Part shown: positions 5,050 through 20,052 of the stretch, piece by piece
How the letters are laid out: each line of letters opens with the position of its first letter
How positions within the stretch are numbered: position 1 is the stretch's first letter
Source of the DNA: a virus
Taxonomy: Duplodnaviria > Heunggongvirae > Uroviricota > Caudoviricetes
DNA: 20,052 bases
Direction: 5' to 3' (one strand)
Virus record (IMG/VR): IMGVR_UViG_2534681705_000013
Location: 1-20,052 of that record
Translations under genes and position numbers: made by a program
Notes under the pieces: model-generated
Seen by the model: only the letters and a program-made list of their open reading frames with translations
Databases searched by the model: none
What the model was told of the DNA's origin: nothing

Positions 5050-5407
5050 GACGCGCCTCCCGTTGATTACAGCGGAAAGCGGTGTGACTGAGACTGGTTT
5101 CAGTTTCATGGAATGCTTCAATGCAGCTCTCGTAGTACCGCATTGTGCGCAGACTTAACCCAAGCTGAAGCATCATCAGGCCATCAAGGGTGATGTAATA
5201 ACCACGCAGGGAGTCACCATAGATGTGATAAGTACCCGGTATGAAATTGCGGGTAAAAAACTCGCGTGAGCAGTTCAGATACTCGATTTTGTCGACGATG
5301 TTCTGGTGCATGCGCTTAAAGTGGCAGGCAACATGCAGGGAGAAAATAACGGCCTTGCCGTTGACAACTTCAATTTTCAGGTATGGGGAAGTTGGGACTG
5401 TAGCCAT
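5042..5407 (-). CDS. phage regulatory protein, Rha family
   Basis: C-terminal 122 aa of ORF 5042..5833: KAVIFSLHVACHFKRMHQNIVDKIEYLNCSREFFTRNF…GDSLRGYYITLDGLMMLQLG…IEAFHETE matches the Rha-family pattern. ATG at 5407 is preceded by GGAGG. The in-frame upstream extension to 5833 has a TTG start and low-complexity composition. Confidence 0.55.
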   Translation of the reverse strand: MATVPTSPYLKIEVVNGKAVIFSLHVACHFKRMHQNIVDKIEYLNCSREFFTRNFIPGTYHIYGDSLRGYYITLDGLMMLQLGLSLRTMRYYESCIEAFHETETSLSHTAFRCNQREARHV

Positions 5408-5794
5408 GATGGCAGCCTCCGTATGCAATGGATAACTTCCACCACCGGAGGTTCCAATCTCACTGGTGGTGAACTGGACAGGGTTGGAACTACCGGCGCA
5501 TACGGAAACCGGCGAGCCTTTCGGCTCCCCTGCCCAGCCCACCATAATTCTGGCGTGCGTGAGCGCGGACGATAAAAAAGACGCTGGCGCGTCGTATATC
5601 GCCGTATGCAATTCCGGGGTTCCAATCCCGGCACCCGCTTTATAAGGTGCAGGGACAGTGTAACGTCCCGAAATTGCAGAATCAATATTTAGGCTTGAAA
5701 CATTCATATGCTTACTGGTATTTTTACTAACGCAAATGTTCTTGGATGTTACTGGCTTACTTCTCAGTGAAGTTGCCTTTACCAACGTTGAGCG

Positions 5795-5822
5795 AGCCGG
5801 GTCACTACCCGGCTTTTTTTTC
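5795..5822 (+). terminator. plus-strand intrinsic terminator inside the minus-strand operon
   Basis: 8-bp stem AGCCGGGT/ACCCGGCT, loop CACT, followed by a run of eight T on the plus strand. On the minus strand the hairpin is preceded by the A-run, not followed by U, so it is not a terminator there. Confidence 0.55.
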
Positions 5823-6570
5823 ACCGCTGCCAACCAATAACCTGAAATAACCCCATTTTCGGGTGATACCAGCGAGTCCCTCGCGGTTCTGCTTCCTCCA
5901 TAACCCGATAAAAAGCAGCCATAAACGGTTCCACAGCAACAATTGCGCGACGTGACAACAATCCGTCCGGCGTCATGAACTCATGGGTGTCTGTAGGAAT
6001 TTGATAGGCGTTCACCAGATTGCGGCATTTATCATCTGACAAACCGGTTTTTGCTTTCAGTTGGCGATATCCGGCATAGCCCTCACGAATGGTACCCCTT
6101 TTGATTTGCTCAACTGTTTCGGCAACATGGCTGACTTTTTCTTCCACCTGAGTGATCCGTTTCTGCTGACGAACGGCTTCAAGAGCCATCGCAGCAACCA
6201 TTTCGATTTCGCTCATTGGCTTACGGATCTGTTCTTCCAGTTCGCGCCAGCGATCTACCAGGCGAGCAGTGAATTCAGGGCAGAGCTGTGCGACGACAAT
6301 GATGCTGTCGCGTTTACCTTGTTCGCCTTCGAAGATGTAAGCACCTACATTTCGTTTTAATCCTAAGTTGTTGATTATTTCGAAATTCGCCATTGGCGCA
6401 CTTCGAATAATCCCCTTATCCATGAGCCTTTCAATGCTGCGCTTAACATCTTTGTGTTGGCTACCCACCAACTCTGCGATCTCAACGCTGGTCATGGATG
6501 CTTTGTCGTTAAAAATTGCGGTGTTCACTGCCATCTCCTTACGGATAAATTCTTTTAAGATTCCGCACAT
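5821..6570 (-). CDS. phage regulatory protein, Rha/antirepressor-like DNA-binding domain
   Basis: 249-aa ORF; MTSVEIAELVGSQHKDVKRSIERL… fits the Rha-type motif. Start is ambiguous: ATG 6570, ATG 6534, or GTG 6528 (the last has AAGGAG at 6-nt spacing). Confidence 0.55.
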   Translation of the reverse strand: MCGILKEFIRKEMAVNTAIFNDKASMTSVEIAELVGSQHKDVKRSIERLMDKGIIRSAPMANFEIINNLGLKRNVGAYIFEGEQGKRDSIIVVAQLCPEFTARLVDRWRELEEQIRKPMSEIEMVAAMALEAVRQQKRITQVEEKVSHVAETVEQIKRGTIREGYAGYRQLKAKTGLSDDKCRNLVNAYQIPTDTHEFMTPDGLLSRRAIVAVEPFMAAFYRVMEEAEPRGTRWYHPKMGLFQVIGWQR

Positions 6571-6647
6571 TCGTACTTATTGGTGCCGAACCTTCCTTCA
6601 GTTATCCTTTTGATCCCTATAAACAAAAGAACCAAAGGAGGTTCGAC

Positions 6648-6899
6648 ATGTCACAAAAAAACGATATTCCTGTTTTTCCTATTACAGCCTGGCAGGCTGG
6701 ACCATTGCCCGGTTATGGTGCGCTAGCATTAAAATTCCAGTACCTAGCTTCTCCTATGCAACCACTGGATTCAGCACAAGAAACTCAGTTCTTCGCGCTT
6801 ACTCCCGAAATGGCTGAGACTTTGATATCCGATCTGCGCCGACATATTGAGACGCTGAAAAAATCCGGTATTCACAGCCCACAAGAAAACAGGCATTAA
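6648..6899 (+). CDS. hypothetical protein
   Basis: 83-aa ORF with a strong SD (AAAGGAGGT) 6 nt upstream of the ATG; opposite orientation to the flanking minus-strand operon. Confidence 0.55.
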   Translation: MSQKNDIPVFPITAWQAGPLPGYGALALKFQYLASPMQPLDSAQETQFFALTPEMAETLISDLRRHIETLKKSGIHSPQENRH

Positions 6900-6929
6900 T
6901 CGAAAAAACGGTTGCCACATAATTTCTTG

Positions 6930-6962
6930 AAAAGCGTCGCGCACTGGCGCTTTTCATTTCTC
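6930..6962. terminator. possible bidirectional terminator between convergent genes
   Basis: AAAAGCG…CGCTTTT symmetric hairpin with an A-run before and a T-run after, between 6648..6899 (+) and the cro-like gene (-). Confidence 0.35.
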
Positions 6963-6983
6963 TACGATCAACAAGCATGCACC

Positions 6984-7193
6984 TCACTTCTCCTCCCCCG
7001 TGTGCGCTAAGCTTGGGTGTGTATATGGAATGTTCGGATCCAGATGGCAGAGAATGGCAACATCCTCCGGAACGCCCCGCGTTTTCCACTTTCCAACTCC
7101 CTGACTACCACGAGGCTTTCCTTTCTTTGGAAACCTACGGCCAATAGCGGCATTGGTTTTAAATTGAGTTTTTAATATTTCATAAAGGGTCAT
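6984..7193 (-). CDS. Cro/DicC-like small DNA-binding regulator
   Basis: 69 aa, basic; N-terminus LYEILKTQFKTNAAIG resembles Cro/DicC-type repressors; divergent from the cI-like gene across an operator-bearing intergenic region; GAGG 7 nt upstream of the ATG. Confidence 0.5.
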   Translation of the reverse strand: MTLYEILKTQFKTNAAIGRRFPKKGKPRGSQGVGKWKTRGVPEDVAILCHLDPNIPYTHPSLAHTGEEK

Positions 7194-7304
7194 TCTTTAG
7201 CCTCACACCGGATACTCTGTTATCCAAGAATGTTAAACGCGAGAATCCAAAGTATCAAGAAATTCTGTTACTTTAGTATCAACAGCCATGAAAGGAGAAG
7301 AAAA
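7194..7304. promoter_or_regulatory. divergent promoter/operator region (OR-like) between cro-like and cI-like genes
   Basis: Repeated half-site GTATCAA at 7252 and 7276, GATAC at 7211; 12-mer CCAAAGTATCAA at 7247 recurs exactly at 7986 on the other side of cI. Confidence 0.5.
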
Positions 7305-7961
7305 ATGAAGTCTTTAGGTGAACGCCTCATCAACGCACGACAAAAAGCTGGGTTAACGCAAGATGCGTTGGCTAAAAAAGCAGGGGTCACCAGAGTTGCA
7401 ATCAGTAAAGCCGAGCAAGGCCTTACAAAAAGTTTCAACGGTGACACCCTTTTTAAAGTCGCAGCTGCACTGCAGTGTTCACCGCAGTGGCTTCAGAACG
7501 GAGATGAAAAAGATAAGCATTGGGAAAATAATGTTAAGAGCTGCCCACAGAGAGACACAGCACACTCTTACCCTGTAATTAACTGGGTTCAGGCAGGATT
7601 ATTCGCAACCGCTGGTGATGACTACAACATGTATGATCAGGATAATTGGAGGCATTCTGTAAAATACGCTGGTGAGAGGGGGTTCTGGCTAGAAGTGCAC
7701 GGAGACTCAATGACTTCGCCCGCAGGAATAACATTTCCTGAAGGAATGTCGATCCTTGTCAACCCAGATAAAGAAGTTTTTTCAGGGTGTTACGTCATCG
7801 CCAGAAAAAAATCTACCAATGAAGCAACATTCAAAAAATATATTTCTGAAATGGGAAAGGCGTTTCTAAAACCCCTTAATCCACAATATCCAATCATAGA
7901 AATGGACAATGATTGCGAAATAGTAGGTGTTGTGGTTGATGCCAGGTGGGATATTTTCTGA
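7305..7961 (+). CDS. CI-like prophage repressor (N-terminal HTH, C-terminal S24/LexA-like peptidase domain)
   Basis: ORF-track ORF 7230..7961; true start is ATG at 7305 (AAAGGAGAAG SD). HTH LTQDALAKKAGVTRVAISKAE; C-terminal GDSM motif and lysine-containing region typical of self-cleaving LexA/CI repressors. Confidence 0.85.
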   Translation: MKSLGERLINARQKAGLTQDALAKKAGVTRVAISKAEQGLTKSFNGDTLFKVAAALQCSPQWLQNGDEKDKHWENNVKSCPQRDTAHSYPVINWVQAGLFATAGDDYNMYDQDNWRHSVKYAGERGFWLEVHGDSMTSPAGITFPEGMSILVNPDKEVFSGCYVIARKKSTNEATFKKYISEMGKAFLKPLNPQYPIIEMDNDCEIVGVVVDARWDIF

Positions 7962-8064
7962 CCAGACACAAAACACAAAAAGAAACCAAAGTATCAAAAA
8001 TCACTTGCTACATCTTGATACCTTAGTTACCATAAAACAAAGTTCGTAACTGAGGTATCATCTC
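7962..8064. promoter_or_regulatory. OL-like operator/promoter region for the plus-strand early operon
   Basis: CCAAAGTATCAA at 7986-7997 and inverted TTGATAC at 8015-8021 (17-bp spacing) immediately upstream of the next plus-strand gene. Confidence 0.4.
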
Positions 8065-8568
8065 ATGATCAATAAAGCCACAACTCTTGACTGTCTCGAA
8101 GAACTGAAAAACCTCGGCAGCCTCATTACGCTAATAGCAAAAGCAACACCAGATGCTACGCTCTCTAGCGATATAGAGTCATGCGCAGGACTGGCATGGG
8201 ATATGACAAATAGCATATCCAGAAAGCTATCGTCAGCAATGCTTTTACAGAACAAAAATTCTGCAATCAACAACCGTCTTCGCACCCAACGCGAAGCCTG
8301 CGGCTTAACAACCGCCGAACTCGCCAGGCTGCTCGATCTCGATGAAGAAATCATCATCCAGTGGGAGAGCGGAGAGTATGAACCAACTATCAGTATGCTT
8401 ATCCCACTGGCAAATATTCTTGGCTGCGATCCGATGTGGCTGTTAACTGGCGAGGTTACTCCTCCGGAGCAACCAAAAAGTGAGGAGCAGCAACACCATG
8501 ACGCATCTCAACAAGTTTGCTCCTTATCTCGCGAAGCTCTTCTACGGAAGAACCAATACCAATGGTGA
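8065..8568 (+). CDS. XRE-family HTH protein with the HTH in the C-terminal half
   Basis: 167 aa; residues ~85-140 (LRTQREACGLTTAELARLLDLDEEIIIQWESGEYEPTISMLIPLANILGCDPMWLL) are a classic XRE/Cro-type HTH; the N-terminal ~80 aa are unassigned. First gene after the OL-like region. Confidence 0.6.
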   Translation: MINKATTLDCLEELKNLGSLITLIAKATPDATLSSDIESCAGLAWDMTNSISRKLSSAMLLQNKNSAINNRLRTQREACGLTTAELARLLDLDEEIIIQWESGEYEPTISMLIPLANILGCDPMWLLTGEVTPPEQPKSEEQQHHDASQQVCSLSREALLRKNQYQW

Positions 8569-8696
8569 CATAATCGCCGCTTCGCCCCTCAAGGTACATG
8601 CGAACATTTTTATCAATCATTGCGGAAACAGTCTCAATATGAAAACACTTCTGAGACTCGCTATATAGCAGAACATATAAGTCAGCTGAGGAAGCC

Positions 8697-9062
8697 ATGA
8701 AAAAGTTCGAAAACATAACTGTTCTCCATGTTGATGACTTTGATTATACAAACCCGGAACTTCTCCCGGAGGTTGTAAAGGCAATAGATGTTGCCGATAT
8801 AGTGATTAGAGGAAAGAGAATTGTCAAAAACAGGCTCGCATGCACTTCAGGAGCAATGACAGAAACAACCTCACAACAAGATGATTATGAAGGCATTTGT
8901 CTGGAGCCGGACTCATTTGCGGTAAATGTTTATCATTTATTGCATGCAACACAGGTATTACATATGTCCAGTAATCACGAAACAAAAACACTTGGCAGCG
9001 AAATTCTGAATTTTGCATGTGAATATGCAAAATCTGCTGCCGAAAAAGAATTAGCGCAATAA
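8697..9062 (+). CDS. hypothetical protein
   Basis: 121-aa ORF with a GAGGAA SD upstream of the ATG. Confidence 0.5.
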   Translation: MKKFENITVLHVDDFDYTNPELLPEVVKAIDVADIVIRGKRIVKNRLACTSGAMTETTSQQDDYEGICLEPDSFAVNVYHLLHATQVLHMSSNHETKTLGSEILNFACEYAKSAAEKELAQ

Positions 9063-9243
9063 CAATAAATATTCCCTGAATGTTTATTACGGTTTTATCG
9101 CCGGGGATTGTTGCAACCTTTATTCGCAGGAGATTATGTTATGACTTTCCTGAAACATAAGGCATCGTATAAAACTGCCTGCCTCATTGCACAACATGGA
9201 GATTCTTATCTTCATATAGCCAGCCTGTATTTGCGCAAAGCAT

Positions 9244-9447
9244 ATGGGAGATAAGTCAATGGAAGAAAAACAACAAAACATAACACATAAAAAAGTAAGA
9301 GTGTTGCTAACCATTGAAAATGGTGAAGTAATTTACTCAAAACATCTGTTGGATAATGAATTCGTTGGTTGCATGGATACATTTCTGTGGATGGCAAAAA
9401 GAGCTGGCTACACGATTATTCCACCAGCAAAGGAGCAAACATTATGA
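9244..9447 (+). CDS. hypothetical small protein
   Basis: 67-aa ORF (alternative start ATG 9259 with GGGAG SD); its stop overlaps the start of the next gene (ATGA at 9444-9447). Confidence 0.4.
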   Translation: MGDKSMEEKQQNITHKKVRVLLTIENGEVIYSKHLLDNEFVGCMDTFLWMAKRAGYTIIPPAKEQTL

Positions 9448-10025
9448 ATCATTCAGAGTTCCGACCAGAAGTAACGCCACATGGCATAAAAATTGGTAAT
9501 ACAACCATTGATTATATTGAGGCCGTACAGCGGCTTAATGATGGCGAATTCGATAATCCATACTGGCACGGTTTAAGAATCATGCAATGTCTTGCCGAAG
9601 CTGATGATGCCGGATTGCTGGGAAGATTTTCAGTCGATCTGAAGGTTGCTCAGTGGCGCTGGCTGTATGTGATGAAGTTTATCAGTGAAGAGGAAGACAA
9701 GAACGGCACTATTGATATCCCTAACGATAACGGGACGATAGATCGCGCAGTTATTTACAAGGGGAAACATGGTTGCATAAGTATATACCCAGGACCACTT
9801 CGCATTGCCCTGCAAAACCATGTCGAATGGGGATTTATTGAAAAATATGGCGAAACTGAAGGCATGGGGCGAGTTCTGTTTCTCTATCAAAAAATGCTCA
9901 TCGCAGATCCTGATAATGGTTTCATTCTCTCTGCTATGGGGCGCGAAGGGCTTAAACTCCTTCTGGATGAAATGATTAACGACCTGAATACTCATGGTAT
10001 GCCAGAAGCGCCTGTGACACATTAA
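9444..10025 (+). CDS. hypothetical protein
   Basis: ORF-track ORF 9369..10025; preferred start is ATG at 9444 (AAGGAG SD, MNHSEFRPE…), 193 aa; translationally coupled to the upstream small ORF. Confidence 0.55.
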   Translation: MNHSEFRPEVTPHGIKIGNTTIDYIEAVQRLNDGEFDNPYWHGLRIMQCLAEADDAGLLGRFSVDLKVAQWRWLYVMKFISEEEDKNGTIDIPNDNGTIDRAVIYKGKHGCISIYPGPLRIALQNHVEWGFIEKYGETEGMGRVLFLYQKMLIADPDNGFILSAMGREGLKLLLDEMINDLNTHGMPEAPVTH

Positions 10026-10201
10026 ATATTAAGAAGAAAATAATTCTTCCGTTTTTTACTAACCGTTTATATGAAAAGCAACCGTGAATTAAACAGAGTA
10101 AAACTGATTTTAATCCTTGCCACAGTACTGACACTAACTGAAATCATTATTCTCTTTATTGCGCTGTCAGTCGGTTAAAAATATCTGGATACCACAGACC
10201 A

Positions 10202-10390
10202 ATGAGACTGTATTTCACAATAGTAATTTTACTGGCAATTATCGCATGCATTTACGGATTACTCGTTCCGTTCCTTATATCCATGAAGGATACGATAGCA
10301 GTTATTTCTGGCTTTGCACTGGCGTTTCTGACTCCGCCCTGCATTTATGCCATTTACAAGGGGCTTTCTTTCACTAAGGATAAAAGATGA
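10202..10390 (+). CDS. small hydrophobic membrane protein (two predicted TM helices)
   Basis: 62 aa, mostly hydrophobic; stop overlaps the start of the SPFH gene (ATGA at 10387-10390). Confidence 0.45.
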   Translation: MRLYFTIVILLAIIACIYGLLVPFLISMKDTIAVISGFALAFLTPPCIYAIYKGLSFTKDKR

Positions 10391-11214
10391 AAAAAAATAT
10401 TTTTGCTTTAGCCATTGTTCTGCCGACTATTGGCCTTGTCGGTTGCGATCGCGTTGAACCAGGTAATGTTGGCATCAAGGTAAATAAACTGGGCGACGAC
10501 AAAGGCGTCGGTGAGGTGGTCGGTGTTGGTCGCTACTGGACTGGCTGGAATACTGAAGTTTATATCTTCCCCACCTTCAAACAAATGAAGACCTACGATG
10601 AACCGTTCAGTTTCCAGATGAGTGACGGTACAACCATCGGCTATCACATTGGCGTGGCCTACAAAGTTGATCCATCCAAAGTTACCACGGTGTTTCAGAC
10701 CTACCGCAAAGGCGTGGATGACATTACAGACACCGACCTGCGCCAGAAGATCGCCGACGCACTCAACCGACTGGCCAGCAAAATGACCACTGACAAATTT
10801 ATCGACGGCGGCAAGTCTGAGCTGCTGGATGAAGCTCTTAAAGACATTCAGGCAGAGATGACACCTATCGGTATTCAGGTAATGAGCCTCTCATATGTGG
10901 GTAAGCCGGAGTACCCGTCAACCGTTATCGACAGCATTAATGCCAAAGTCACGGCGAACCAGAAAACACTGCAGCGCGAGCAGGAAGTTAAACAGCGCGA
11001 AGCGGAAGCCAACATGTTGCGCGCGGAAGCTGCCGGACAGGCTGATGCGATTCGCACAAAAGCCCAGGCCGAAGCCGATGCTATTCGTTTACGCGGTGAA
11101 GCTCTGCGCCAGAACCCCGGCGTTATGGAGCTGGAAGCCATCAATAAATGGAACGGCACACTGCCGCAATACATGACTAGCGGTTCTAATACACCATTTA
11201 TCCAGGTTAAATAA
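10387..11214 (+). CDS. SPFH/band-7 (HflC/stomatin-like) domain lipoprotein
   Basis: 275 aa; signal peptide with lipobox LVGC; core resembling band-7/SPFH proteins; C-terminal Ala/Glu/Arg/Gln-rich coiled-coil typical of the family. Confidence 0.8.
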   Translation: MKKNIFALAIVLPTIGLVGCDRVEPGNVGIKVNKLGDDKGVGEVVGVGRYWTGWNTEVYIFPTFKQMKTYDEPFSFQMSDGTTIGYHIGVAYKVDPSKVTTVFQTYRKGVDDITDTDLRQKIADALNRLASKMTTDKFIDGGKSELLDEALKDIQAEMTPIGIQVMSLSYVGKPEYPSTVIDSINAKVTANQKTLQREQEVKQREAEANMLRAEAAGQADAIRTKAQAEADAIRLRGEALRQNPGVMELEAINKWNGTLPQYMTSGSNTPFIQVK

Positions 11215-11254
11215 CTTATATGCCCGGCAGAACGCCGGGCTAAGGAAAAAGCAG

Positions 11255-11614
11255 ATGAATACCCAGAATACTCAACCGCAAATAATGAACTATGACCCGA
11301 ATCTGACGTTGTGCGGACGCATGGCAAAACAAACCGTTCGATTAACTTTCGGGCTATGGGAATACCGCGAAACATTCGAAGTCACTGTCGGCGGCAATCT
11401 GACCGGACTGGATGTTATCAGTTGCGCTATTGAAAGCCTGTACGCAACGCTGCCTTATGAAGAAGTCGAGGATGAGCGCGATATCATAGCCACCATTAAT
11501 ATCGGCGGACTGGAATGCAAGGATGAAAACCTGTCCGGAGAGCTCTGGCTTGCCGGGATGCTTATCTCAGCAGAAATTATCAGTATTGAACCCGCTACAA
11601 ACATACGGCTCTGA
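11255..11614 (+). CDS. hypothetical protein
   Basis: 119-aa ORF with AAGGAAAAAG SD; preceded by a GC hairpin at ~11222-11240. Confidence 0.5.
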   Translation: MNTQNTQPQIMNYDPNLTLCGRMAKQTVRLTFGLWEYRETFEVTVGGNLTGLDVISCAIESLYATLPYEEVEDERDIIATINIGGLECKDENLSGELWLAGMLISAEIISIEPATNIRL

Positions 11615-11645
11615 AGTTCTCACTATTCAGAGAGCAGGAGAAAAA

Positions 11646-11888
11646 ATGTTCGCTTTGATTAATCAAGGGCAACTGTATACCGACAGTGCCGGTTACCCGG
11701 TAAAAATTATTCGCTGCATAAACAACACTGTGTTGTACAGAAGAATGGATGGGCGAACACAATCGGTAAAAATAAACGATTTTAATGAACTGTTTGAACG
11801 GATCGATCACCAGGAATACCGACAAATTCTGGCAGAAACAGAGCAGGAAGCTCATCTGAAAAAATTACGGGCCATGAAAAGGAAGTAA
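11646..11888 (+). CDS. hypothetical protein
   Basis: Internal ATG of ORF 11523..11888 with an AGGAG SD (MFALINQGQLY…), 80 aa. Confidence 0.45.
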   Translation: MFALINQGQLYTDSAGYPVKIIRCINNTVLYRRMDGRTQSVKINDFNELFERIDHQEYRQILAETEQEAHLKKLRAMKRK

Positions 11889-11891
11889 AGA

Positions 11892-12038
11892 ATGAATAAA
11901 GCGTTTGAGCTATGGGTACGCCAGCGTTACGGCAATCGCTATGACCTGACGCGAGATGTTGACGGCTTCTACTGTCGTGAAGTTGTGAAACGAATGTTTG
12001 AAGTGTGGTGCCACTGCCGTGGGCTGAATGTTGTATGA
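11892..12038 (+). CDS. hypothetical small protein
   Basis: 48-codon ORF (MNKAFELWVRQRYG…) with AAGGAAG SD; below the ORF-track size cutoff; tightly packed between neighbours. Confidence 0.3.
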   Translation: MNKAFELWVRQRYGNRYDLTRDVDGFYCREVVKRMFEVWCHCRGLNVV

Positions 12039-12046
12039 GGTGAACT

Positions 12047-12256
12047 GTGGGGCTGGATTGCGTGCCTATATCAACCTACTGCCGCGACGCGGGAGAAACG
12101 GTTGATGCCGTTAACAAACGGATACAAAGAGGAATATGGAAAGAAGGGGTTCATGTATTAAAAGTCGACGGAGTTAAAGAACGCTGGGTCGACTTAATAG
12201 AGGTTTCAAAATGGGCAAGAAAGAACAAGGATTATTATCTCTGCCAAGAGGAGTAA
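12047..12256 (+). CDS. putative excisionase (Xis-like DNA-binding protein)
   Basis: 69-aa ORF with GTG start and GAGGTG SD; overlaps the integrase start by 46 bp, the usual xis-int arrangement in lambdoid phages. Confidence 0.45.
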   Translation: MGLDCVPISTYCRDAGETVDAVNKRIQRGIWKEGVHVLKVDGVKERWVDLIEVSKWARKNKDYYLCQEE

Positions 12257-13395
12257 CTATTCGTAAGCATAAAACTGCTTCAACACTAGTTATCACTTTC
12301 ACATATAAAGGGGTTCTTTGCAGGGAGCCCCTGTCTCGGCTTGAGGCAAATACACGTGGTATTAAATATGCTGAGCGCCTGCTAGGGGAGATACAAAATC
12401 AGATCGCCAGCGGAACGTTTGAATATGCGAAATATTTCCCCAGTTCCAAAAAACTGGAGTTATTCGGTGTAGTAAAGAAAACCAAAAATATTAAGTCCTA
12501 TCTTGATGAATACCTGAAAATTTGCGTGAACCGCAATCTGTCGCCGTCAACCATTGGCGGTTACGAAAAATGTCTATCAGCACTATCAGAACTACATAAA
12601 CTACATGTAACAGAATTGACGCCTGCGGTACTAAAAAATTGGATAGCCAGCCGAAAAACTAAGCTGAAAACAATCAGGAACAACCTGTCATTTCTGCGCA
12701 GCGCCATTGATGAGGCTGTAACTGATGGCCTGTTGACTATTAACCCGGTAACTCTTGTCAGCGCCAGCCGGTATCACGTGGTCGACAGTAAACCGAACGC
12801 CGACGATTACGAAGTTGATCCGTTTGCGCCTGCGGAAACCAGTGCAATATATCAGCACTGCAAGTATCAGGAATGGCAGAATCTGTTCCGCTTCGCCTTC
12901 AATACAGGGCTACGCAGCTCTGAGCTATGCGCATTACGTTGGACCGATATCGACTTTATAGGTAATACAGCGCACATACAGGCAGCCAGTGTCGTAGGCG
13001 TATTGAAAGGCACCAAAACAAAAGCAGGCACCCGTAAAGTGGAATTAAACAGTGAGGCTCTGGCGGCTCTGCAAGCACAAAAGCAATTCACATTCATGAA
13101 AAGCGAGTTCATATTCAGTGACCCCAAAACGAAAGAGCCTTGGGCGAACGCTGATGCAATCCGCAAAAAAGCATGGGTTCCCACCCTTAAAAAAGCCGGT
13201 GTCCGTTACCGTAACCCCTACCAGACGCGACACACGTTCGCCACGCGGCACATCAGCCAAGGTGTAAATCTATTCTGGCTTGCTGGCCAGATGGGCCACA
13301 AAGGACCGGAAATGCTGTTCCGACATTATGGTCGCTACCTTTCGGCCTATGATGGCAAAACGTCACTTGATAGCCATGCACAACATTTTACGTGA
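12211..13395 (+). CDS. lambda-family tyrosine integrase
   Basis: 394 aa; lambda-Int-like N-terminus (MGKK…LPRGV.IRK), catalytic-domain signatures (TGLRSSELCALRW, HTFATRH, LAGQMGHK…RHYGRY). Confidence 0.9.
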   Translation: MGKKEQGLLSLPRGVTIRKHKTASTLVITFTYKGVLCREPLSRLEANTRGIKYAERLLGEIQNQIASGTFEYAKYFPSSKKLELFGVVKKTKNIKSYLDEYLKICVNRNLSPSTIGGYEKCLSALSELHKLHVTELTPAVLKNWIASRKTKLKTIRNNLSFLRSAIDEAVTDGLLTINPVTLVSASRYHVVDSKPNADDYEVDPFAPAETSAIYQHCKYQEWQNLFRFAFNTGLRSSELCALRWTDIDFIGNTAHIQAASVVGVLKGTKTKAGTRKVELNSEALAALQAQKQFTFMKSEFIFSDPKTKEPWANADAIRKKAWVPTLKKAGVRYRNPYQTRHTFATRHISQGVNLFWLAGQMGHKGPEMLFRHYGRYLSAYDGKTSLDSHAQHFT

Positions 13396-13760
13396 TCACC
13401 CTATGCGCGCGTTTCCAATCACAAACATAGCAAAACTGAAGACCACCTTGATTAAAAAAATAAGCTATCATCTATGTAATCAATAGGTAAAAAAACAGTG
13501 TAAACCACCAAATAAAACCTTAAAAATCATGATGTTACACATTAGCAAGAAATGATGCAAAAACATTTCACTTGACTTATTTTAATATTATGATTTTAAA
13601 GAAAAAATATTTTTTACAAGACAGTGTATGGACTGTGATAGTACTTGAAGAGTGGTAGTACAAGCTGTTATCCTTTGCTCCACGAATACAAGATTTTGTT
13701 GTTTTTTGATTTTCAATCACTTAGCGTATCAGCGGCGAAGCGCAATAACTGGAGTCCACT

Positions 13761-13799
13761 ATGAAAAAAACCCTAGCAGTAGGTTTTGGTGAAGGTTAA
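13761..13799 (+). other. 12-codon leader-like uORF (MKKTLAVGFGEG)
   Basis: ATG with GGAG SD at 6-nt spacing; lies 44 nt upstream of the 13844-13870 hairpin and the membrane-protein gene. Confidence 0.3.
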
Positions 13800-13843
13800 C
13801 TTCTGATCTTTACTATTTAAAAAATGCTCTCCATTAGCACAAC

Positions 13844-13870
13844 AAGACCTCCTCATGGAGGTCTTTTGTT
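13844..13870 (+). terminator. intrinsic-terminator-like hairpin 16 nt upstream of the 13886 start codon (possible attenuator)
   Basis: 9-bp stem AAGACCTCC/GGAGGTCTT, loop TCAT, followed by TTTTGTT; the stem pairs a GGAGG with CCTCC. Confidence 0.45.
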
Positions 13871-13885
13871 ATAGGAAACAAAGAG

Positions 13886-14809
13886 ATGGCAAGGATTATT
13901 GTCAACATCAGCGCAACAGTTTTCACCCTTATGCTCTTATTTAGGGCATTGTTCACTTACATTTATCCAGACACACTTCCTTTCGATATAGCTATCATCG
14001 ACTGGCTTGTCGTAGCTTCAGGTTCAGGTGCTGCCATTTCTTCTATCTTCTGCTTTATCAAAAAACGCTACCCCGATACAGCAGAATTTTTACCGATGTT
14101 CAGCACAATTTGTTATGTGATCGTGCTGATCGGATACGCAATATTAAGGTACACCCCCACATATCAAACCTCATTGTCAATAATGGTTACAGGGATGTTA
14201 GTTGGTATGGGATGGTGGATACAGTGCATTACTTCTGCAGCCAATACTCGCAGATCACATACCCTGAACATGATCATTAACACGCGAACCAGCCCGGAAT
14301 ACCAGAAACAATTAAGAAACAGCACCGCTTTCTATCGAGGTATGCGCTATGTACCACAAGAACTTTCAGAATGGCGATGCAACCCTGATAAAGACGAATA
14401 TAAGAATATGAAAGTACCGGAAGAATATCGCGACGCAATTAATGGGCTTCTATATATTCTTAACTACTTTGAGTTTCTTGCCCAAGGGATCAAATTCAAA
14501 GATTTAGATGACGGGTTACTAAAAGAATGTTTCTCAAGCTTCCTAAGAGGCATCGAGAGGCGAGGGTTTCACATGATCTTAGAGTCGCAAAAGCAAGACC
14601 CAGCAGCATTTGAAGGAATTATTTATCTTTCTAAAAAATGGAATGGTTCATCATTTGTAGAAACTCACCGATCAAACCCAAATACTGTTGAACTTGGTAT
14701 CCCTTATCCGTCAAACGAAATTGTTGAGAAAATGGTGAAGGGCATCCCCATCCTTGAGGAAGAACCAGCGCCAGAGTTACATCTTGCCTCCGAAACAGAG
14801 ACTCAGTAA
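13886..14809 (+). CDS. membrane protein of unknown function (about four N-terminal TM helices plus a ~190-aa soluble C-terminal domain)
   Basis: 307-aa ORF; hydrophobic segments in the first ~120 residues, charged C-terminal domain; AT-rich; between the prophage integrase and the tmRNA core fragment. Confidence 0.65.
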   Translation: MARIIVNISATVFTLMLLFRALFTYIYPDTLPFDIAIIDWLVVASGSGAAISSIFCFIKKRYPDTAEFLPMFSTICYVIVLIGYAILRYTPTYQTSLSIMVTGMLVGMGWWIQCITSAANTRRSHTLNMIINTRTSPEYQKQLRNSTAFYRGMRYVPQELSEWRCNPDKDEYKNMKVPEEYRDAINGLLYILNYFEFLAQGIKFKDLDDGLLKECFSSFLRGIERRGFHMILESQKQDPAAFEGIIYLSKKWNGSSFVETHRSNPNTVELGIPYPSNEIVEKMVKGIPILEEEPAPELHLASETETQ

Positions 14810-14895
14810 TGACACAAGAGGGATATCAATATGCACGTAAAATGCACTTAGCCAGTATCAAAACTTAATAACTAAATATATTCAATGAGTTATGC

Positions 14896-14934
14896 TATTT
14901 TCGGACACGGGTTCAACTCCCGCCAGCTCCACCA
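14896..14934 (+). other. ssrA: 3'-terminal fragment of tmRNA (ssrA): T-arm and acceptor 3' strand ending CCA; attachment-site core
   Basis: ATTTTCGGACACGGGTTCAACTCCCGCCAGCTCCACCA matches the 3' end of enterobacterial tmRNA as I recall it, with one mismatch in the T-stem; upstream sequence is protein-coding, so the tmRNA body is absent. Confidence 0.7.
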
Positions 14935-14980
14935 AAATTCTCCATCGGTGATTACCAGAGTCATCCGATGAAGTCCTAAG

Positions 14981-15014
14981 AGCCCGCACGGCGCAAGCCC
15001 TGCGGGCTTTTTTG
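14981..15014 (+). terminator. intrinsic terminator (native ssrA terminator)
   Basis: Stem AGCCCGCA…TGCGGGCT followed by TTTTTTG, downstream of the CCA end. Confidence 0.6.
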
Positions 15015-15068
15015 TGCCCTCAATTTGTCCCGCGAAGTCCGAAGAAAACTAATTAAATCCGATCCTTT

Positions 15069-15120
15069 TAGGCACCTTGTTAGGCACCTCATAAAGCTTT
15101 ATTGTTTTTTGAGGTGCCTA
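15069..15120. promoter_or_regulatory. repeat cluster upstream of the P4-type integrase gene
   Basis: TAGGCACCT at 15069 and 15081 (direct), perfect palindrome ATAAAGCTTTAT at 15091-15102, inverted copy AGGTGCCTA at 15112-15120; ends 20 bp before the integrase ATG. Confidence 0.45.
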
Positions 15121-15139
15121 AAACTATGGAAACCCGGCA

Positions 15140-16381
15140 ATGGCAAGACAAACCAAACCTCTATCCGTTAAAGAAATAGAATCAGCCAAACCCAAGGAGG
15201 CGGACTACGTTCTCTATGATGGCGATGGCCTTGAGCTACTCATTAAATCCAGCGGGAGTAAAATCTGGCAGTTTCGCTACATTCGCCCTGTCACCAAGAA
15301 ACGAGCAAAGAAGAGCATAGGCTCCTACCCGTCAGTTACCCTTGCCGATGCCAGAAACTACCGTGCAGAGTCCCGCTCACTACTGGCTAAACAGATCGAT
15401 CCGCAGGAACATCAGCAAGAACAATTGCGCAGTTCGCTGGAAGCCAAAACCAACACTTTCCAACTCGTAGCTGAACGTTGGTGGAATGTGAAGAAAGCCA
15501 GTGTGACAGAGGACTATGCGGAAGATATCTGGCGCTCTCTTGAAAGAGACGTCTTTCCTGCGATTGGCGACGTTAGCGTTACAGATATTAAAGCTCATAC
15601 ACTGGTTCAGGCCGTACAACCGGTTCAGGCCAGAGGAGCACTGGAAACTGTTCGTCGCCTGTGCCAACGTATTAATGAGGTCATGATCTATGCCCAGAAC
15701 ACAGGGCTGATTGATGCTGTTCCCAGCGTTAATATCGGTAAAGCCTTCGAGAAGCCTCAGAAAAAGAACATGCCCAGCATTCGACCGGATCAGCTACCTC
15801 AGTTAATGCAGACGATGCGAACAGCCAGCATTAGCCTTTCCACACGCTGCCTGTTCATGTGGCAACTTCTTACTATTACCCGCCCTGCCGAAGCGGCTGA
15901 AGCTCTCTGGGAAGAGGTAGACATAGAAGCGCGAGAGTGGAAGATTCCTGCAGCACGCATGAAAATGAACCGCGACCATACTGTTCCATTGTCAGATGAA
16001 GCAATTGCGATACTAGAGATGATGAAGCCGTTAAGTGGAAATCGAGAATTTATCTTTCCCAGCCGCATCAAGCCAAACCAGCCGATGAACAGTCAGACCG
16101 TAAACGCATCGCTAAAACGCGCAGGTTTTGGTGGGGTGCTCGTTTCACACGGCCTGCGATCTATCGCCAGTACAGCCCTTAATGAGCAGGGATTTCCACC
16201 TGATGTTATTGAGGCTGCACTTGCTCATGTGGATAAGAATGAGGTTCGTCGTGCGTATAACCGTAGTGATTATCTTGAGCAGCGACGGCCTATGATGCAG
16301 TGGTGGGCTGATTTTGTGATGGCTGCAGATCACGGTAGTATGATTGAAGGAGGGATAAAGGCAATGCGGTTAGTTGGATGA
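15140..16381 (+). CDS. intA: P4/CP4-57-type tyrosine integrase
   Basis: 413 aa; N-terminus MARQTKPL…KPKEADYVLYDGDGLELLIKSSGSKIWQFRY characteristic of P4-family integrases; sits ~200 bp downstream of the tmRNA 3' end as CP4-57 intA does in E. coli K-12. Confidence 0.9.
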   Translation: MARQTKPLSVKEIESAKPKEADYVLYDGDGLELLIKSSGSKIWQFRYIRPVTKKRAKKSIGSYPSVTLADARNYRAESRSLLAKQIDPQEHQQEQLRSSLEAKTNTFQLVAERWWNVKKASVTEDYAEDIWRSLERDVFPAIGDVSVTDIKAHTLVQAVQPVQARGALETVRRLCQRINEVMIYAQNTGLIDAVPSVNIGKAFEKPQKKNMPSIRPDQLPQLMQTMRTASISLSTRCLFMWQLLTITRPAEAAEALWEEVDIEAREWKIPAARMKMNRDHTVPLSDEAIAILEMMKPLSGNREFIFPSRIKPNQPMNSQTVNASLKRAGFGGVLVSHGLRSIASTALNEQGFPPDVIEAALAHVDKNEVRRAYNRSDYLEQRRPMMQWWADFVMAADHGSMIEGGIKAMRLVG

Positions 16382-16461
16382 CATGTCGTAGCTAAAACCC
16401 GTTCTGTTTTTGGGTAGATTAACCTGAAGGTCTGCAATTTTAAATGACGCTGAAAGAAGTT

Positions 16462-16486
16462 AAACCCTGCTCTTAAGCAGGGTTTT
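16462..16486. terminator. hairpin between convergent genes (likely bidirectional terminator)
   Basis: 10-bp stem AAACCCTGCT/AGCAGGGTTT, loop CTTA, T-rich on both sides; between the intA stop and the stop of the large minus-strand ORF. Confidence 0.45.
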
Positions 16487-16519
16487 TATGATTTATTCTA
16501 ATTTTGGTTTTGAATCTTT

Positions 16520-18807
16520 CTATTTTAAATCAGCCTTTGCGGCTCGAATATCTGCGTTTTTTGCTGAGTATTCCCATTCGTCAGCGATTCTAAATAGCAT
16601 TGCAGAAGTACGGACGCAGTGGGGCATTGAATTTGCCCATTCTCGGTACTGCTCAGCTAATATCCTTTCTTGGTTTCCACCTTCGTAACGCATACGAGCA
16701 AATACCCCCCTTTTATTGTACCTACCAATTTGTATACCTTGCTCTAACTCATCAGAAGATAATATTTCAATGATGTGCCGAATTGCTTCATGTGGCCAGG
16801 AATTATCTACTGAGCTATTAGGGGCATGTGCCAGAATTTTTCCTATTACATGATCAGTGATTTCTTGGCGATGATGCAATTTTGCTAAATGGCGTACATT
16901 CTCACACCAATCTTCAAGTTTATCTTGATCAATTTCATTGTCTATCTGCCCTGGTAGTATTCGTAATTTTTCAAGTAATCTGTATATAGAAGTAGCTCTT
17001 TTAACTTCCAACTCCGATGGTTCTGTTTGTTCATCTTCGTCACTACGATATACAATACATATTGCTTCTATAAAAACCTCTGGCTTTTTCATCATTAGAC
17101 GATGCAGGATAAGTGGCTCATCGCTATCCGGAAAACAAGGCAAGTAGGTCATTTCTTTAAATGCCAAATCTGTTTCAGAAACATCGTTACGTTGTTTGAG
17201 TTCATCAAAAACTTTTTTTACATAGTACGATAGCATTGTATCAAATTGGATATCCTGGCTATTTATTTCTTTAACGACTATATCTAGAAGATATAAAAGT
17301 GTTGTAGATGGAATCTCAGAAAGGCGTTGATTTGCTGATATAATAGCAGCAAGACCCCGGCCCCTTTCTATATATTTATCCATAAGAACAAATAAATCCG
17401 AAGTTTTACCCATCATTGCAATGGGTTGTTTTTGCAACCAATATTTTTCGTTGATGTTATCTTCAAACCCTTCAATAATGCTCCATATCTCTTGTGAGTC
17501 TCTTAACGATGCTAAGATTTTCCCAGCCCTATCAGGGGTAATTTTAAACTGTTTAAAATACACTTTTATTTTATTAAGCCATTCAGCACCAAAGCATTCA
17601 ACACCATATTGCATTAACAACCCACAAACTTCATCAATATTTTTTTTGTTGTTAATAAGCATTACAAACAAATCATTTAATTTTTCTTCATCCAACGAGA
17701 GTGCTGATATATGCCTTGCTGCAATAAAAACATTATTAACTTGTTGAAAAAGGTCTTTCACCCCAGACAAACCTAAAGTAAAGTATATTTCCCTAAGTTT
17801 TTCACTTCGCATTTCTTCGACAGAAGAAAAAATTCCGCCAGCATTTTCAATTGACTCTTCAATATCAGAATCCCAATCATTGAAAATCCATAAACTGGCT
17901 CTAACCATGTCAATTGGTTTATAATTATCAAGTATTTTCGCTATTTTTTCCATAGACTCAAATTTAAATGCCCAGTTCGCATCTGAATATTTTTTATGGC
18001 GAGAATACTCATGACGCAAAGCCTCCCATACGATGAACTGATCCTCTTCAGTTTGTTGAGAAAGGCAAAGTTCAAGATGAGAAAGTGTTTCATCTATTGC
18101 ATTCTCAGGGAATGAGCTTAAATGAGAGATTAGGATTTCCCATCTTGTTGGGAGTATACCTGCAAGTTTAATTGCTTCTTGGATAATAAAGATTTGCCCC
18201 TCCCAAACAACGCCCCACGTTAGTTTTTCTACATCTTTATCCGACTCTCTGAACTTCATTTTTTGGTTTTGATCAGAGGTATCATGGGAGCGAGGAAGGA
18301 GATTTTGTAACAAACTCCACCCAATACTAGGAACAATAGTGATAATTTTTTTTATAATTGCATTTCTAACTTTTACTGGTGCCCATGTATTAGGAGACCA
18401 TGCCAGAAAAATGGTTCTTAAACTATTAAGAGGGCGATCTGAGTAAGTTCCTCCGGGATCTATTACAGCGAGTTTTGCAAGACAGATTGCAGCGCGTAAT
18501 AGATATGTTTGTTCCCAAGCCAAGGCTTCCAATGCCCATTTTAATCCATGATAATGACTTCGAGGAGTTAACAGCCCTTTATCTTCATTGAATATTGGAG
18601 CAATCATTTCCCCATTGCCCTTAAGCAATTGCTCAAGGGCATCAAGGAAAGGGCCAGGGGCAGCTTCTGCCAGCAGCGGAAGTTGATCTCGCAAACTAAC
18701 AAATAGTCGATGGTCGTTAGCAAGTCCCGGAATACTCTGAACTATTTTGTTAACAAAATCTTGGGGTGTCATACCAGTAACCCGGAATTCGGCCTGTTCA
18801 TGTAATA
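16520..18807 (-). CDS. large alpha-helical protein of unknown function, adjacent to or 5'-interrupted by IS3
   Basis: ORF-track ORF 16520..18823 (767 aa); the first 5 codons including the TTG start lie inside the IS3 left inverted repeat. Strongly AT-rich; Leu/Glu/Lys/Trp-rich; no catalytic motif recognised by eye. Native start is either ATG at 18775 or beyond the IS. Confidence 0.65.
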
Positions 18808-18872
18808 TGATCTTACCCAGCAATAGTGGACACGCGGCTAAGTGAGTAAACTCTCAGTCAGAGGTGACTCAC

Positions 18873-19172
18873 ATGACAAAAACAGTATCAACCAGTAAAA
18901 AACCCCGTAAACAGCATTCGCCTGAATTTCGCAGTGAAGCCCTGAAGCTTGCTGAACGCATCGGTGTTACTGCCGCAGCCCGTGAACTCAGCCTGTATGA
19001 ATCACAGCTCTACAACTGGCGCAGTAAACAGCAAAATCAGCAGACGTCTTCTGAACGTGAACTGGAGATGTCTACCGAGATTGCACGTCTCAAACGCCAG
19101 CTGGCAGAACGGGATGAAGAGCTGGCTATCCTCCAAAAGGCCGCGACATACTTCGCGAAGCGCCTGAAATGA
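18873..19172 (+). CDS. insE: IS3 transposase OrfA (HTH subunit)
   Basis: [53 protein letters not shown]… matches IS3 InsE from memory; the ORF track starts 9 nt earlier at GTG. Confidence 0.85.
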
Positions 19173-20034
19173 AGTATGTCTTTATTGAAAAACATCAGGC
19201 TGAGTTCAGCATCAAAGCAATGTGCCGCGTGCTCCGGGTGGCCCGCAGCGGCTGGTATACGTGGTGTCAGCGGCGGACAAGGATAAGCACGCGTCAGCAG
19301 TTCCGCCAACACTGCGACAGCGTTGTCCTCGCGGCTTTTACCCGGTCAAAACAGCGTTACGGTGCCCCACGCCTGACGGATGAACTGCGTGCTCAGGGTT
19401 ACCCCTTTAACGTAAAAACCGTGGCGGCAAGCCTGCGCCGTCAGGGACTGAGGGCAAAGGCCTCCCGGAAGTTCAGCCCGGTCAGCTACCGCGCACACGG
19501 CCTGCCTGTGTCAGAAAATCTGTTGGAGCAGGATTTTTACGCCAGTGGCCCGAACCAGAGTGGGCAGGAGACATCACGTACTTACGTACAGATGAAGGCT
19601 GGCTGTATCTGGCAGTGGTCATTGACCTGTGGTCACGTGCCGTTATTGGCTGGTCAATGTCGCCACGCATGACGGCGCAACTGGCCTGCGATGCCCTGCA
19701 GATGGCGCTGTGGCGGCGTAAGAGGCCCCGGAACGTTATCGTTCACACGGACCGTGGAGGCCAGTACTGTTCAGCAGATTATCAGGCGCAACTGAAGCGG
19801 CATAATCTGCGTGGAAGTATGAGCGCAAAAGGTTGCTGCTACGATAATGCCTGCGTGGAAAGCTTCTTTCATTCGCTGAAAGTGGAATGTATCCATGGAG
19901 AACACTTTATCAGCCGGGAAATAATGCGGGCAACGGTGTTTAATTATATCGAATGTGATTACAATCGGTGGCGGCGGCACAGTTGGTGTGGCGGCCTCAG
20001 TCCGGAACAATTTGAAAACAAGAACCTCGCTTAG
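19169..20034 (+). pseudogene. insF: IS3 transposase OrfB (DDE catalytic subunit) carrying an internal frameshift
   Basis: ORF-track ORFs 19169..19672 and 19615..20034 are two frames of one protein; the frame breaks near 19557-19561 (…ASGPNQS|GQETSR… instead of …NQKWAGDITY…), just before the conserved W-x-x-D-I-T-Y segment. Confidence 0.75.
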
Positions 20035-20052
20035 GCCTGTGTCCATATTACG

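What the first reader, a model, noticed from the sequence alone, without database searches (positions are those of the whole stretch)
14896..15014. tmRNA 3'-core fragment with native terminator: tandem integration at ssrA
Seen in sequence: only the last ~39 nt of tmRNA (T-arm and acceptor 3' strand to CCA) are present, with one T-stem mismatch (ACGGG/CCCGC), followed by a canonical terminator and then the P4-type integrase. The upstream flank is prophage coding sequence. Established knowledge: integration at the 3' end of ssrA yields attR as phage arm + core + original downstream sequence, and CP4-57-type islands sit directly downstream of ssrA. Inference: the lambdoid prophage inserted into ssrA upstream of an already resident IntA island; the mismatch marks the phage-derived side of the crossover.
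Basis: partly seen in the sequence, partly recalled or inferred. Interest (0 to 1): 0.4.

Follow-up and report, generated by a model that had tools for sequence, protein, structure and literature searches.

The report
Prophage attR scar at ssrA
This is the right-hand attachment site of a prophage inserted in the tmRNA gene (a 36-base copy of the gene's end), sitting directly against a CP4-57-type island that uses the same site; it is an ordinary, well-documented arrangement.

Summary
Window 14899-14934 is the last 36 nt of E. coli ssrA (35/36 identical; A for G at 14907, the first T-stem pair). There is no intact tmRNA gene in the window. A strong hairpin/U-run terminator follows (14978-15013), then a P4/CP4-57-type integrase (15140-16381, 85% identical to K-12 IntA). 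Upstream lies a phiP27-like lambdoid early region ending in xis, int and a DUF4760 gene.

The interpretation, attR of an ssrA-integrated prophage abutting an IntA island, is supported:
- An isolated phage with a 90%-identical integrase (LMessi) carries the same core in its attP, including the A.
- Related lysogens (C311, E300082, MS 115-1) have intact ssrA, with G, at the far end of a 41-45 kb prophage.
- Phage-linked sequence stops at 14934 in four different downstream contexts.
- PhiNP, whose integrase is 68% identical, has been shown experimentally to integrate into this 25-bp core in MG1655.

Two corrections are needed. The terminator belongs to the IntA island's left arm and is not chromosomal "native" sequence. 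The order of arrival (island first) is the parsimonious reading but cannot be proved from topology.

This is a known phenomenon and of low interest.

The parts
12047..12256 (+). Prophage excisionase (69 aa)
   Evidence: phrog_2917 excisionase, E 2.5e-41. The same-position gene in C311 is annotated as excisionase.
12211..13395 (+). Prophage tyrosine integrase (394 aa), transcribed towards the att site
   Evidence: Pfam Arm-DNA-bind_2 + Phage_integrase. It is 90% identical to the Int of isolated phage LMessi and 68% identical to the Int of PhiNP, which targets ssrA (PMC6456863).
13886..14809 (+). DUF4760 gene (307 aa), a moron inserted between int and the att arm
   Evidence: Pfam DUF4760, E 7.9e-15. 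LMessi and MS 115-1 lack it: in LMessi int lies about 135 bp from the core. The exact protein is recorded in 385 blocks of the collection, always in the xis-int-DUF4760 module in the 10 places read. No PADLOC hit.
14830..14848 (+). Two direct (T/A)ATGCAC repeats 11 bp apart in the P arm; putative Int arm-type sites (inference)
   Evidence: The repeats are conserved (one C311 copy has a single substitution, ATACAC) in the P arms of LMessi, phi467, PhiR12_5 and C311 despite divergent surrounding sequence. An inverted pair, AAATGCACGTGCATTT, lies in the P' arm of C311 attL.
14899..14934 (+). ssrA 3' fragment, the att core region of the prophage attR: 5' T-stem strand, T-loop, 3' T-stem strand, and acceptor 3' strand to CCA
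   Evidence: 35/36 identical to MG1655 ssrA. Rfam tmRNA truncated hit. 14910-14934 equals the 25-bp PhiNP attP/attB core. 14920-14934 equals the 15-bp CP4-57 core.
14907..14907 (+). A in place of G (first T-stem pair): the phage-derived side of the crossover
   Evidence: A in LMessi attP. Non-G in every attR examined (A in most; L005 has GGATACGGG and L010 GGACTCGGG). G in attL of C311 and E300082.
14935..15139 (+). Left arm of the IntA-type island: hairpin 14943-14970, intrinsic terminator 14978-15013, and TTAGGCACC repeats at 15068, 15080 and 15113(-)
   Evidence: Collinear with ssrA-intA in thousands of E. coli genomes and lying inside the annotated CP4-57 in MG1655. Fold z = -5.8. The repeats co-vary with the integrase variant: TAGGCCCA / TGGGCCTA in K-12.
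15140..16381 (+). P4/CP4-57-type integrase (413 aa)
   Evidence: Pfam Arm-DNA-bind_3 + Phage_int_M + Phage_integrase. NCBIfam PRK09692, 931 bits. 85% identical to K-12 IntA.
16520..18823 (-). Island cargo ORF of unknown function (767 aa from a TTG start; called as 750 aa in CP057645.1)
   Evidence: No Pfam, NCBIfam, PADLOC or PDB hit. Matches positions 488-1255 of the 1258-position phrog_18693.
18809..20052 (+). IS3-family element interrupting the island and running off the window
   Evidence: HTH_Tnp_1, HTH_21 and rve domains. 99.7% identical to IS3 copies in E300082 and C311. Collinearity with CP057645.1 stops at 18808.

Best explanation
Window 14899-14934 is the core of attR of a temperate phage that integrated by tyrosine-recombinase site-specific recombination into the 3' end of ssrA. 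The phage has a phiP27-like lambdoid early region and an xis-int-DUF4760 right end.

The phage attP carries a copy of the ssrA T-arm and acceptor 3' strand, with an A at the outermost T-stem position. Recombination within the 27-bp perfect identity (14908-14934; by analogy most likely in the T-loop) had two products. One is an intact ssrA at the distant attL, whose 3' end and downstream terminator are phage-supplied. The other is the displaced former 3' end of ssrA at attR, still joined to whatever followed it.

Here what followed is the left arm of a CP4-57-type island: its own ssrA terminator, its arm repeats and its P4-type integrase. That island uses a nested 15-bp core of the same site. 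The result is a tandem array, ssrA-prophage-fragment-island.

Shown: the anatomy, the phage origin of the A, the breakpoints, and the full arrangement in relatives.
Inferred: that the window's own genome has intact ssrA at the far end, that the island was there first, and the exact crossover position.
For: - Fragment identity and uniqueness.
- No tmRNA gene in the window.
- Int and Xis next to the site.
- attP of isolated phage LMessi (Int 90% identical) reads TTCGGACACGGGTTCAACTCCCGCCAGCTCCACCA followed by CTTTTGATAGGACTGC. That following sequence is exactly what follows intact ssrA at attL in the C311 and E300082 lysogens.
- Intact ssrA at the far end of 41-45 kb prophages in C311, E300082 and MS 115-1.
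- The phage arm ends at 14934 in four downstream contexts.
- The same tandem junction is 99.3% identical over window 8696-18808 in CP057645.1. It is present in 8 of 5,426 complete E. coli genomes and in Kosakonia quasisacchari.
- PhiNP (Int 68% identical) has been shown experimentally to integrate into this 25-bp core in MG1655, which carries CP4-57 downstream: PMC6456863.
- ssrA is an established hot spot for tandem elements: Williams 2003, J Bacteriol 185:1059, cited in PMC10107115.
Against: - The window does not reach attL, so intact ssrA in this genome is inferred from relatives.
- One near relative (PSS-15) has an IS-mediated rearrangement of this region, and the window itself ends in an IS3. 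The far end could therefore be rearranged here too.
- No excision or activity data exist for this prophage.
Confidence: 0.9

Rival explanations
1. Same tandem array but the reverse order. The phage lysogenised an island-free ssrA first. The IntA-type island then integrated into the phage-made ssrA fragment at attR, used as a secondary attB, rather than into the intact gene.
For: - The fragment contains the complete 15-bp CP4-57-type core, CCGCCAGCTCCACCA (14920-14934).
- Prophage-only chromosomes exist: E300082, L010 and L017.
- Both orders give an identical map.
Against: - ssrA followed directly by this IntA arm is the common state: 4,249 of 5,426 genomes match it, and 202 records match at >=99% identity. 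The phage arm joined to it is rare, 8 genomes.
- The same phage module sits in front of several unrelated downstream contexts. That is what a late arrival into intact ssrA predicts.
- PhiNP does exactly this in MG1655.
Confidence: 0.12
2. The fragment is not a site-specific recombination product. It is what remained of ssrA after a deletion or an IS-mediated rearrangement fused unrelated prophage DNA to a truncated ssrA-IntA locus.
For: - IS elements and rearrangements are frequent at this locus (PSS-15).
- An IS3 lies at window 18809 onwards.
Against: - The boundary coincides to the base with the attP identity block of a free phage, including the phage-specific A.
- It is reproduced in many independent genomes and in another genus.
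- int and xis are intact and adjacent.
Confidence: 0.03
3. Chance resemblance to tmRNA, or a functional small tRNA-like gene in its own right.
For: None beyond the sequence match itself.
Against: - 35/36 identity, with a 25-mer expected 0 times by chance.
- No acceptor 5' strand and no tRNA/tmRNA call.
- No promoter-like site immediately upstream.
Confidence: 0.01

Closest known systems
PhiNP lysogens of E. coli K-12 (Citrobacter rodentium phage NP; PMC6456863)
   Same: The integrase is from the same family (68% aa identity). The 25-bp core GGTTCAACTCCCGCCAGCTCCACCA at the ssrA 3' end is identical. Integration duplicates the core and regenerates ssrA. In MG1655 the duplicate abuts CP4-57, which is the same tandem layout.
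   Different: The window's phage has a longer identity block (36 bp with one mismatch), a phiP27-like early region, and a DUF4760 gene between int and the att arm. Its integration has not been tested experimentally.
CP4-57 cryptic prophage at ssrA of E. coli K-12 (IntA; Kirby 1994, Wang 2009, cited in PMC10107115)
   Same: The downstream element has an IntA-type integrase (85% identical). It follows the ssrA CCA with the same hairpin and terminator, nearly identical over 14935-15065.
   Different: It is a variant integrase with different arm repeats (TTAGGCACC versus TAGGCCCA) and different cargo (a 750/767-aa unknown ORF, then an IS3). It lacks yfjH-alpA-yfjI. Here it adjoins an ssrA fragment rather than the intact gene.
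[quoted passage not shown]
   Same: Several elements with different integrase families use nested sublocations of the ssrA 3' end. They leave displaced 3' fragments between elements, and each element supplies the 3' end and terminator.
   Different: Nothing essential differs. This is another instance, with a specific pair of elements.
Isolated phage LMessi (PP925823) and prophages phi467 and PhiR12_1-5
   Same: The Int is 90-96% identical. The attP/attR core, including the A/non-G variant, and the ATGCAC P-arm repeats are the same.
   Different: The genes between int and att differ: none in LMessi, three small reverse ORFs in PhiR12_5, and a DUF4760 homologue in phi467. The rest of the genome also differs.

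Membership tests
tmRNA gene (Rfam RF00023 / ARAGORN tmRNA) | Complete tRNA-like domain (both acceptor strands), tag reading frame and pseudoknots, scoring above the family threshold | tested here: not met
   ARAGORN finds 0 genes. No hit at gathering threshold. In E-value mode the hit is 35.5 bits against a 47-bit cut-off, and only the last ~37 model positions are aligned confidently. This is a 3' fragment, not a gene.
Prophage attR at a tRNA/tmRNA gene | Block of identity to the 3' end of the target gene, at the boundary between phage DNA and non-phage DNA | tested here: met
   14899-14934 is 35/36 identical to ssrA. The phage arm ends at 14934 in four downstream contexts, and the ssrA/island arm starts at 14899.
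Prophage attR at a tRNA/tmRNA gene | The same block is present in attP of the free phage | tested here: met
   LMessi (isolated phage, Int 90% identical) carries the core between int and the tail-fibre end, with the A variant.
Prophage attR at a tRNA/tmRNA gene | A second copy of the core inside the intact target gene at the other prophage end (attL) | not testable with these tools
   It lies outside the window. It is met in relatives: C311, E300082 and MS 115-1.
Prophage attR at a tRNA/tmRNA gene | Cognate integrase and excisionase adjacent to the site | tested here: met
   int at 12211-13395 and xis at 12047-12256.
Prophage attR at a tRNA/tmRNA gene | Int/Xis-dependent excision that regenerates attB and attP | not testable with these tools
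   This needs induction and PCR. There is experimental precedent only for the related PhiNP.
P4 / CP4-57 IntA-type integrase | Arm-DNA-bind_3 (DUF4102) N-terminal domain, central Phage_int_M domain and tyrosine recombinase catalytic domain | tested here: met
   PF13356, PF22022 and PF00589 are all above their cut-offs. PRK09692 scores 931 bits. 85% identity to K-12 IntA.
P4 / CP4-57 IntA-type integrase | Gene located directly downstream of its att core at the ssrA 3' end | tested here: met
   The core CCGCCAGCTCCACCA is at 14920-14934 and int starts at 15140. The spacing is the same as in MG1655.
Intrinsic (Rho-independent) terminator | GC-rich hairpin followed by a U-run | tested here: met
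   Scan hit at 14995-15009. The full hairpin is 14978-15011 with six T at 15008-15013. The fold has z = -5.8. Termination activity was not tested.
Lambdoid / phiP27-like temperate phage | Divergent repressor/cro-type switch, replication and Q antiterminator genes, with int at the end of the leftward (pL-type) operon | tested here: met
   95.8% identity to phiP27 over 63% of window 1-14900. Collinear relatives are annotated with a LexA-family repressor, Rha/Ant, replicative helicase, Q antiterminator, excisionase and integrase. The late genes are outside the window and differ among relatives.

The most novel reading that the evidence does not exclude
The displaced ssrA fragment may be more than a scar. 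It keeps complete cores for both integrase families. It could therefore act as a phage-made secondary attB through which the IntA-type island entered after the phage, or through which it could later swap partners or be co-mobilised with the prophage. On this reading ssrA arrays would grow from internal fragments as well as from the intact gene.
Probability: 0.1. Interest if true: 0.3.

Novelty: already known. Interest (0 to 1): 0.1.

Why it matters
The main value is for annotation.
- It marks the exact right boundary of the prophage (14934) and the left boundary of the IntA island.
- It shows that the window contains no functional tmRNA gene.
- It predicts that clean excision would restore wild-type ssrA: G in the T-stem and a perfect 3' end. 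CP4-57 excision, by contrast, deletes T357 and cripples tmRNA (PMC10107115).
- It illustrates that each element landing in ssrA brings its own terminator, so the 'ssrA terminator' familiar from K-12 is island DNA.

None of this is new biology.

Tried and rejected
(1) Extended ssrA homology in the phage arm upstream of 14899, suggested by the Rfam alignment of ACUAAAUAUAUU to ACUAAGCAUGUA. Local and anchored global alignments are no better than shuffles (131/2000 and 213/2000). Rejected.

That interval holds only a terminator-like hairpin and promoter-like sites ahead of DUF4760. Phage collinearity continues to 14934. Rejected.

(3) PSS-15 as a model of the full array. It turned out to be rearranged by IS elements, so MS 115-1, C311 and E300082 were used instead.

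(4) Finding the window's own genome. No complete RefSeq E. coli genome covers >=80% of the window. The best junction-spanning match is GenBank CP057645.1, at 99.3% over 8696-18808, which is not retrievable as an annotated record.

(5) Williams 2003 could not be read. It is cited from memory and through PMC10107115.

(6) PADLOC and PDB searches on the DUF4760 protein and the 767-aa ORF gave nothing.

(7) The partial Rfam IsrM hit at 14925-15013 is only the shared terminator (32 bits against a 376-bit gathering score). It is not an IsrM gene.

Full report
**Observation**

Window 14899-14934 reads TTTCGGACACGGGTTCAACTCCCGCCAGCTCCACCA. MG1655 ssrA ends TTTCGGACGCGGGTTCAACTCCCGCCAGCTCCACCA. That is 35 of 36 identical, with the one difference (A14907 for G) converting the outermost T-stem pair G-C into A-C.

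- The 25-mer 14910-14934 is unique in the window and never occurs in shuffles.
- Rfam's tmRNA model finds only a 5'-truncated, sub-threshold match (35.5 against 47 bits), whose confident part is this stretch.
- ARAGORN finds no tmRNA or tRNA anywhere in the window.
- Similarity to ssrA does not extend upstream of 14899.

After the CCA come a hairpin (14943-14970) and a strong intrinsic terminator (hairpin 14978-15011, T-run 15008-13). The fold has z = -5.8. Next is a 413-aa integrase with the P4-type architecture. It scores PRK09692 931 bits and is 85% identical to K-12 IntA.

**What lies upstream**

Window 1-12041 is the early region of a phiP27-like lambdoid prophage: 95.8% identity over 63% of the query. 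Collinear E. coli prophages are annotated with a Q antiterminator, a replicative helicase, Rha/Ant proteins and a LexA-family repressor.

The rightward operon ends with three genes:
- an excisionase at 12047-12256 (phrog_2917);
- a tyrosine integrase at 12211-13395 (Arm-DNA-bind_2 + Phage_integrase);
- a DUF4760 gene at 13886-14809.

In isolated phage LMessi and in the MS 115-1 prophage the integrase lies close to the core with no DUF4760 gene in between (about 135 bp in LMessi). DUF4760 is therefore a moron inserted at the int-att junction.

**Is it an attR?**

Four lines of evidence agree.

(i) Breakpoints. In other loci carrying the same xis-int-DUF4760 module, collinearity with the window stops at 14934/5, the CCA. 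What follows is a 409-aa P4-type integrase island (L002, L009, L011, L015, L016 and L018, which include C311, O55:H7 CB9615 and O157:H7 493/89), a third island (L012), or no island, with ypjA-proximal sequence directly after (L001/L013 = E300082, L010, L017). In CP057645.1 the match instead runs on to 18808. Conversely, more than 4,000 E. coli genomes align with the window only from 14899 onwards, usually with ssrA annotated there. The 36-bp overlap is the att core.

(ii) attP. LMessi is an isolated phage whose Int is 90% identical. Its attP reads ...TTCGGACACGGGTTCAACTCCCGCCAGCTCCACCA|CTTTTGATAGGACTGCAACC....

(iii) attL. In the C311 and E300082 lysogens, intact ssrA (with G) sits 43-45 kb away at the tail-fibre end. 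It is followed by that same CTTTTGATAGGACTGC arm.

(iv) Experiment. PhiNP has an Int 68% identical to this one. It was shown to integrate into exactly this 25-bp sequence of ssrA in MG1655, duplicating it and regenerating ssrA (PMC6456863).

**The mismatch**

Every attR examined has a non-G base at the 14907-equivalent position: mostly A, with L005 reading GGATACGGG and L010 GGACTCGGG. The free-phage attP has A. Both attL sites examined have G. The base is therefore phage-borne, and strand exchange lies to its right, within 14908-14934.

By analogy with T-loop-targeting tyrosine integrases, the 7-nt T-loop flanked by the inverted T-stem arms is the likely overlap region. This is inference.

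Conserved ATGCAC direct repeats at 14830-14848 are shared by otherwise diverged P arms. An inverted pair lies in the P' arm. These are probably arm-type Int sites (inference).

**Correction on the 'native' terminator**

- MG1655 annotates CP4-57 as beginning 15 nt inside ssrA (core CCGCCAGCTCCACCA, window 14920-14934). Its attR (psaA) is followed by ATCATGATTGGACGG....
- That same sequence follows the phage attR directly in island-free E300082.
- Genomes whose ssrA-adjacent island has a different P4-type integrase carry a different, roughly 80%-similar terminator.

Hence 14935-15139, terminator included, is the left arm of the IntA island and not chromosomal sequence. Each incoming element supplies ssrA with its own terminator, and the phage does so as well: there is a hairpin about 150 nt into the P' arm.

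The TTAGGCACC repeats at 15068, 15080 and 15113(-) change in concert to TAGGCCCA in K-12, together with the integrase variant.

**Tandem array and order of arrival**

MS 115-1 shows the complete predicted map: smpB-ssrA, a 41-kb lambdoid prophage, int, the fragment, then intA-alpA-yfjI.

- The window's own junction is 99.3% identical to CP057645.1 across 8696-18808.
- It recurs in 8 of 5,426 complete E. coli genomes.
- It also occurs in Kosakonia quasisacchari.

The island-only state is far commoner than the tandem state, and the phage module appears in front of several unrelated contexts. 'Island first, phage second' is therefore the parsimonious order, and PhiNP does exactly this in MG1655. 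However, the fragment retains a full IntA core, so the reverse order would give the same map. I put that at about 0.1.

The attL of this particular genome was not seen. PSS-15 shows that IS elements can rearrange the locus, and the window ends in an IS3.

**Comparison and verdict**

This is a textbook attR at a tmRNA gene and a textbook ssrA tandem array. The precedents are Williams 2003 (from memory; cited in PMC10107115) and ssrA as a listed prophage site in STEC (PMC8112680 and PMC7067040). Nothing departs from the known mechanism.

Novelty: already known. Interest: low.

Noticed in passing
window 5462-5549 (-) and 5574-5650 (-): Full-length Rfam hits to C4 antisense RNA (84.3 bits) and the isrK Hfq-binding RNA (63.6 bits) lie side by side in the prophage immunity region, next to Rha/Ant-type genes. 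This looks like a P1/P7-style C4-ant antirepressor control module inside a phiP27-like lambdoid phage.
   Followed up: no
window 13886-14809 (+), with terminator-like hairpin 13844-13865 and promoter-like sites 13567-13642 upstream: A DUF4760 gene sits as an apparently independent cassette between int and the att arm. The identical protein is recorded in 385 blocks of the collection, always in the xis-int-DUF4760 module in the 10 places read. It has no PADLOC hit and only one literature mention of the domain. It is a candidate lysogenic-conversion or defence moron of unknown function.
   Followed up: partly
window 16520-18823 (-): A 767-aa ORF (750 aa from the ATG) is the first cargo gene of the IntA island. 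It has no Pfam, NCBIfam, PADLOC or PDB match. It aligns only to positions 488-1255 of the 1258-position phrog_18693, so it may be an N-terminally truncated or split version of a larger protein.
   Followed up: partly
window 18809-20052: An IS3 copy (99.7% identical to IS3 in other strains) is inserted in the island exactly where collinearity with CP057645.1 ends. Its orfB reads as two overlapping ORFs in different frames (19169-19672 and 19615-20034), which suggests a frameshifted transposase.
   Followed up: partly
window 15068-15121; MG1655 L008 1090-1150: Three copies of TTAGGCACC (two direct, one inverted) lie upstream of the IntA-type gene. In K-12 all three are replaced in concert by TAGGCCCA / TGGGCCTA, alongside a 15% diverged integrase. 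This looks like co-evolving arm-type binding sites.
   Followed up: partly
window 14925-15013; L002 30297-30360: Rfam's Salmonella IsrM model matches only at its two ends: the ssrA 3' tail and the terminator. The terminator consensus in the IsrM model is closest to the one carried by the 409-aa-integrase islands. This suggests IsrM's 3' end derives from an ssrA-att arm of such an island.
   Followed up: no
L001 27476-27640; L008 22987-23140: The 'empty-site' sequence after the ssrA core in island-free E. coli is ATCATGATTGGACGG...CAATAAAAACAGGAAG...GACCAGACGGTGA. It resembles the P' arm of the LMessi/C311 phage family (CTTTTGATAGGACTGC...CAATAAAAACAGCCAG...GACCAGACAGTGA). It may therefore itself be the remnant arm of an older phage of this family.
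   Followed up: no
L020 (E. coli PSS-15, NZ_AP027709.1 1185000-1226000): In the relative with the highest summed match score to the whole window (75% covered at 95.8%), the prophage is truncated after the lysis genes by a cluster of IS3, IS21 and IS629 elements. The gab-ypjA side lies inverted next to it, so there has been an IS-mediated inversion across the ssrA array.
   Followed up: no
L019 (Kosakonia quasisacchari NZ_SJOP01000007.1) 1-2830: The same phage-core (A variant) to IntA-island junction occurs in another genus. IntA is 88% identical at the nucleotide level, the TTAGGCACC repeats are the same, and the related phage integrase lies directly next to the core without DUF4760.
   Followed up: partly
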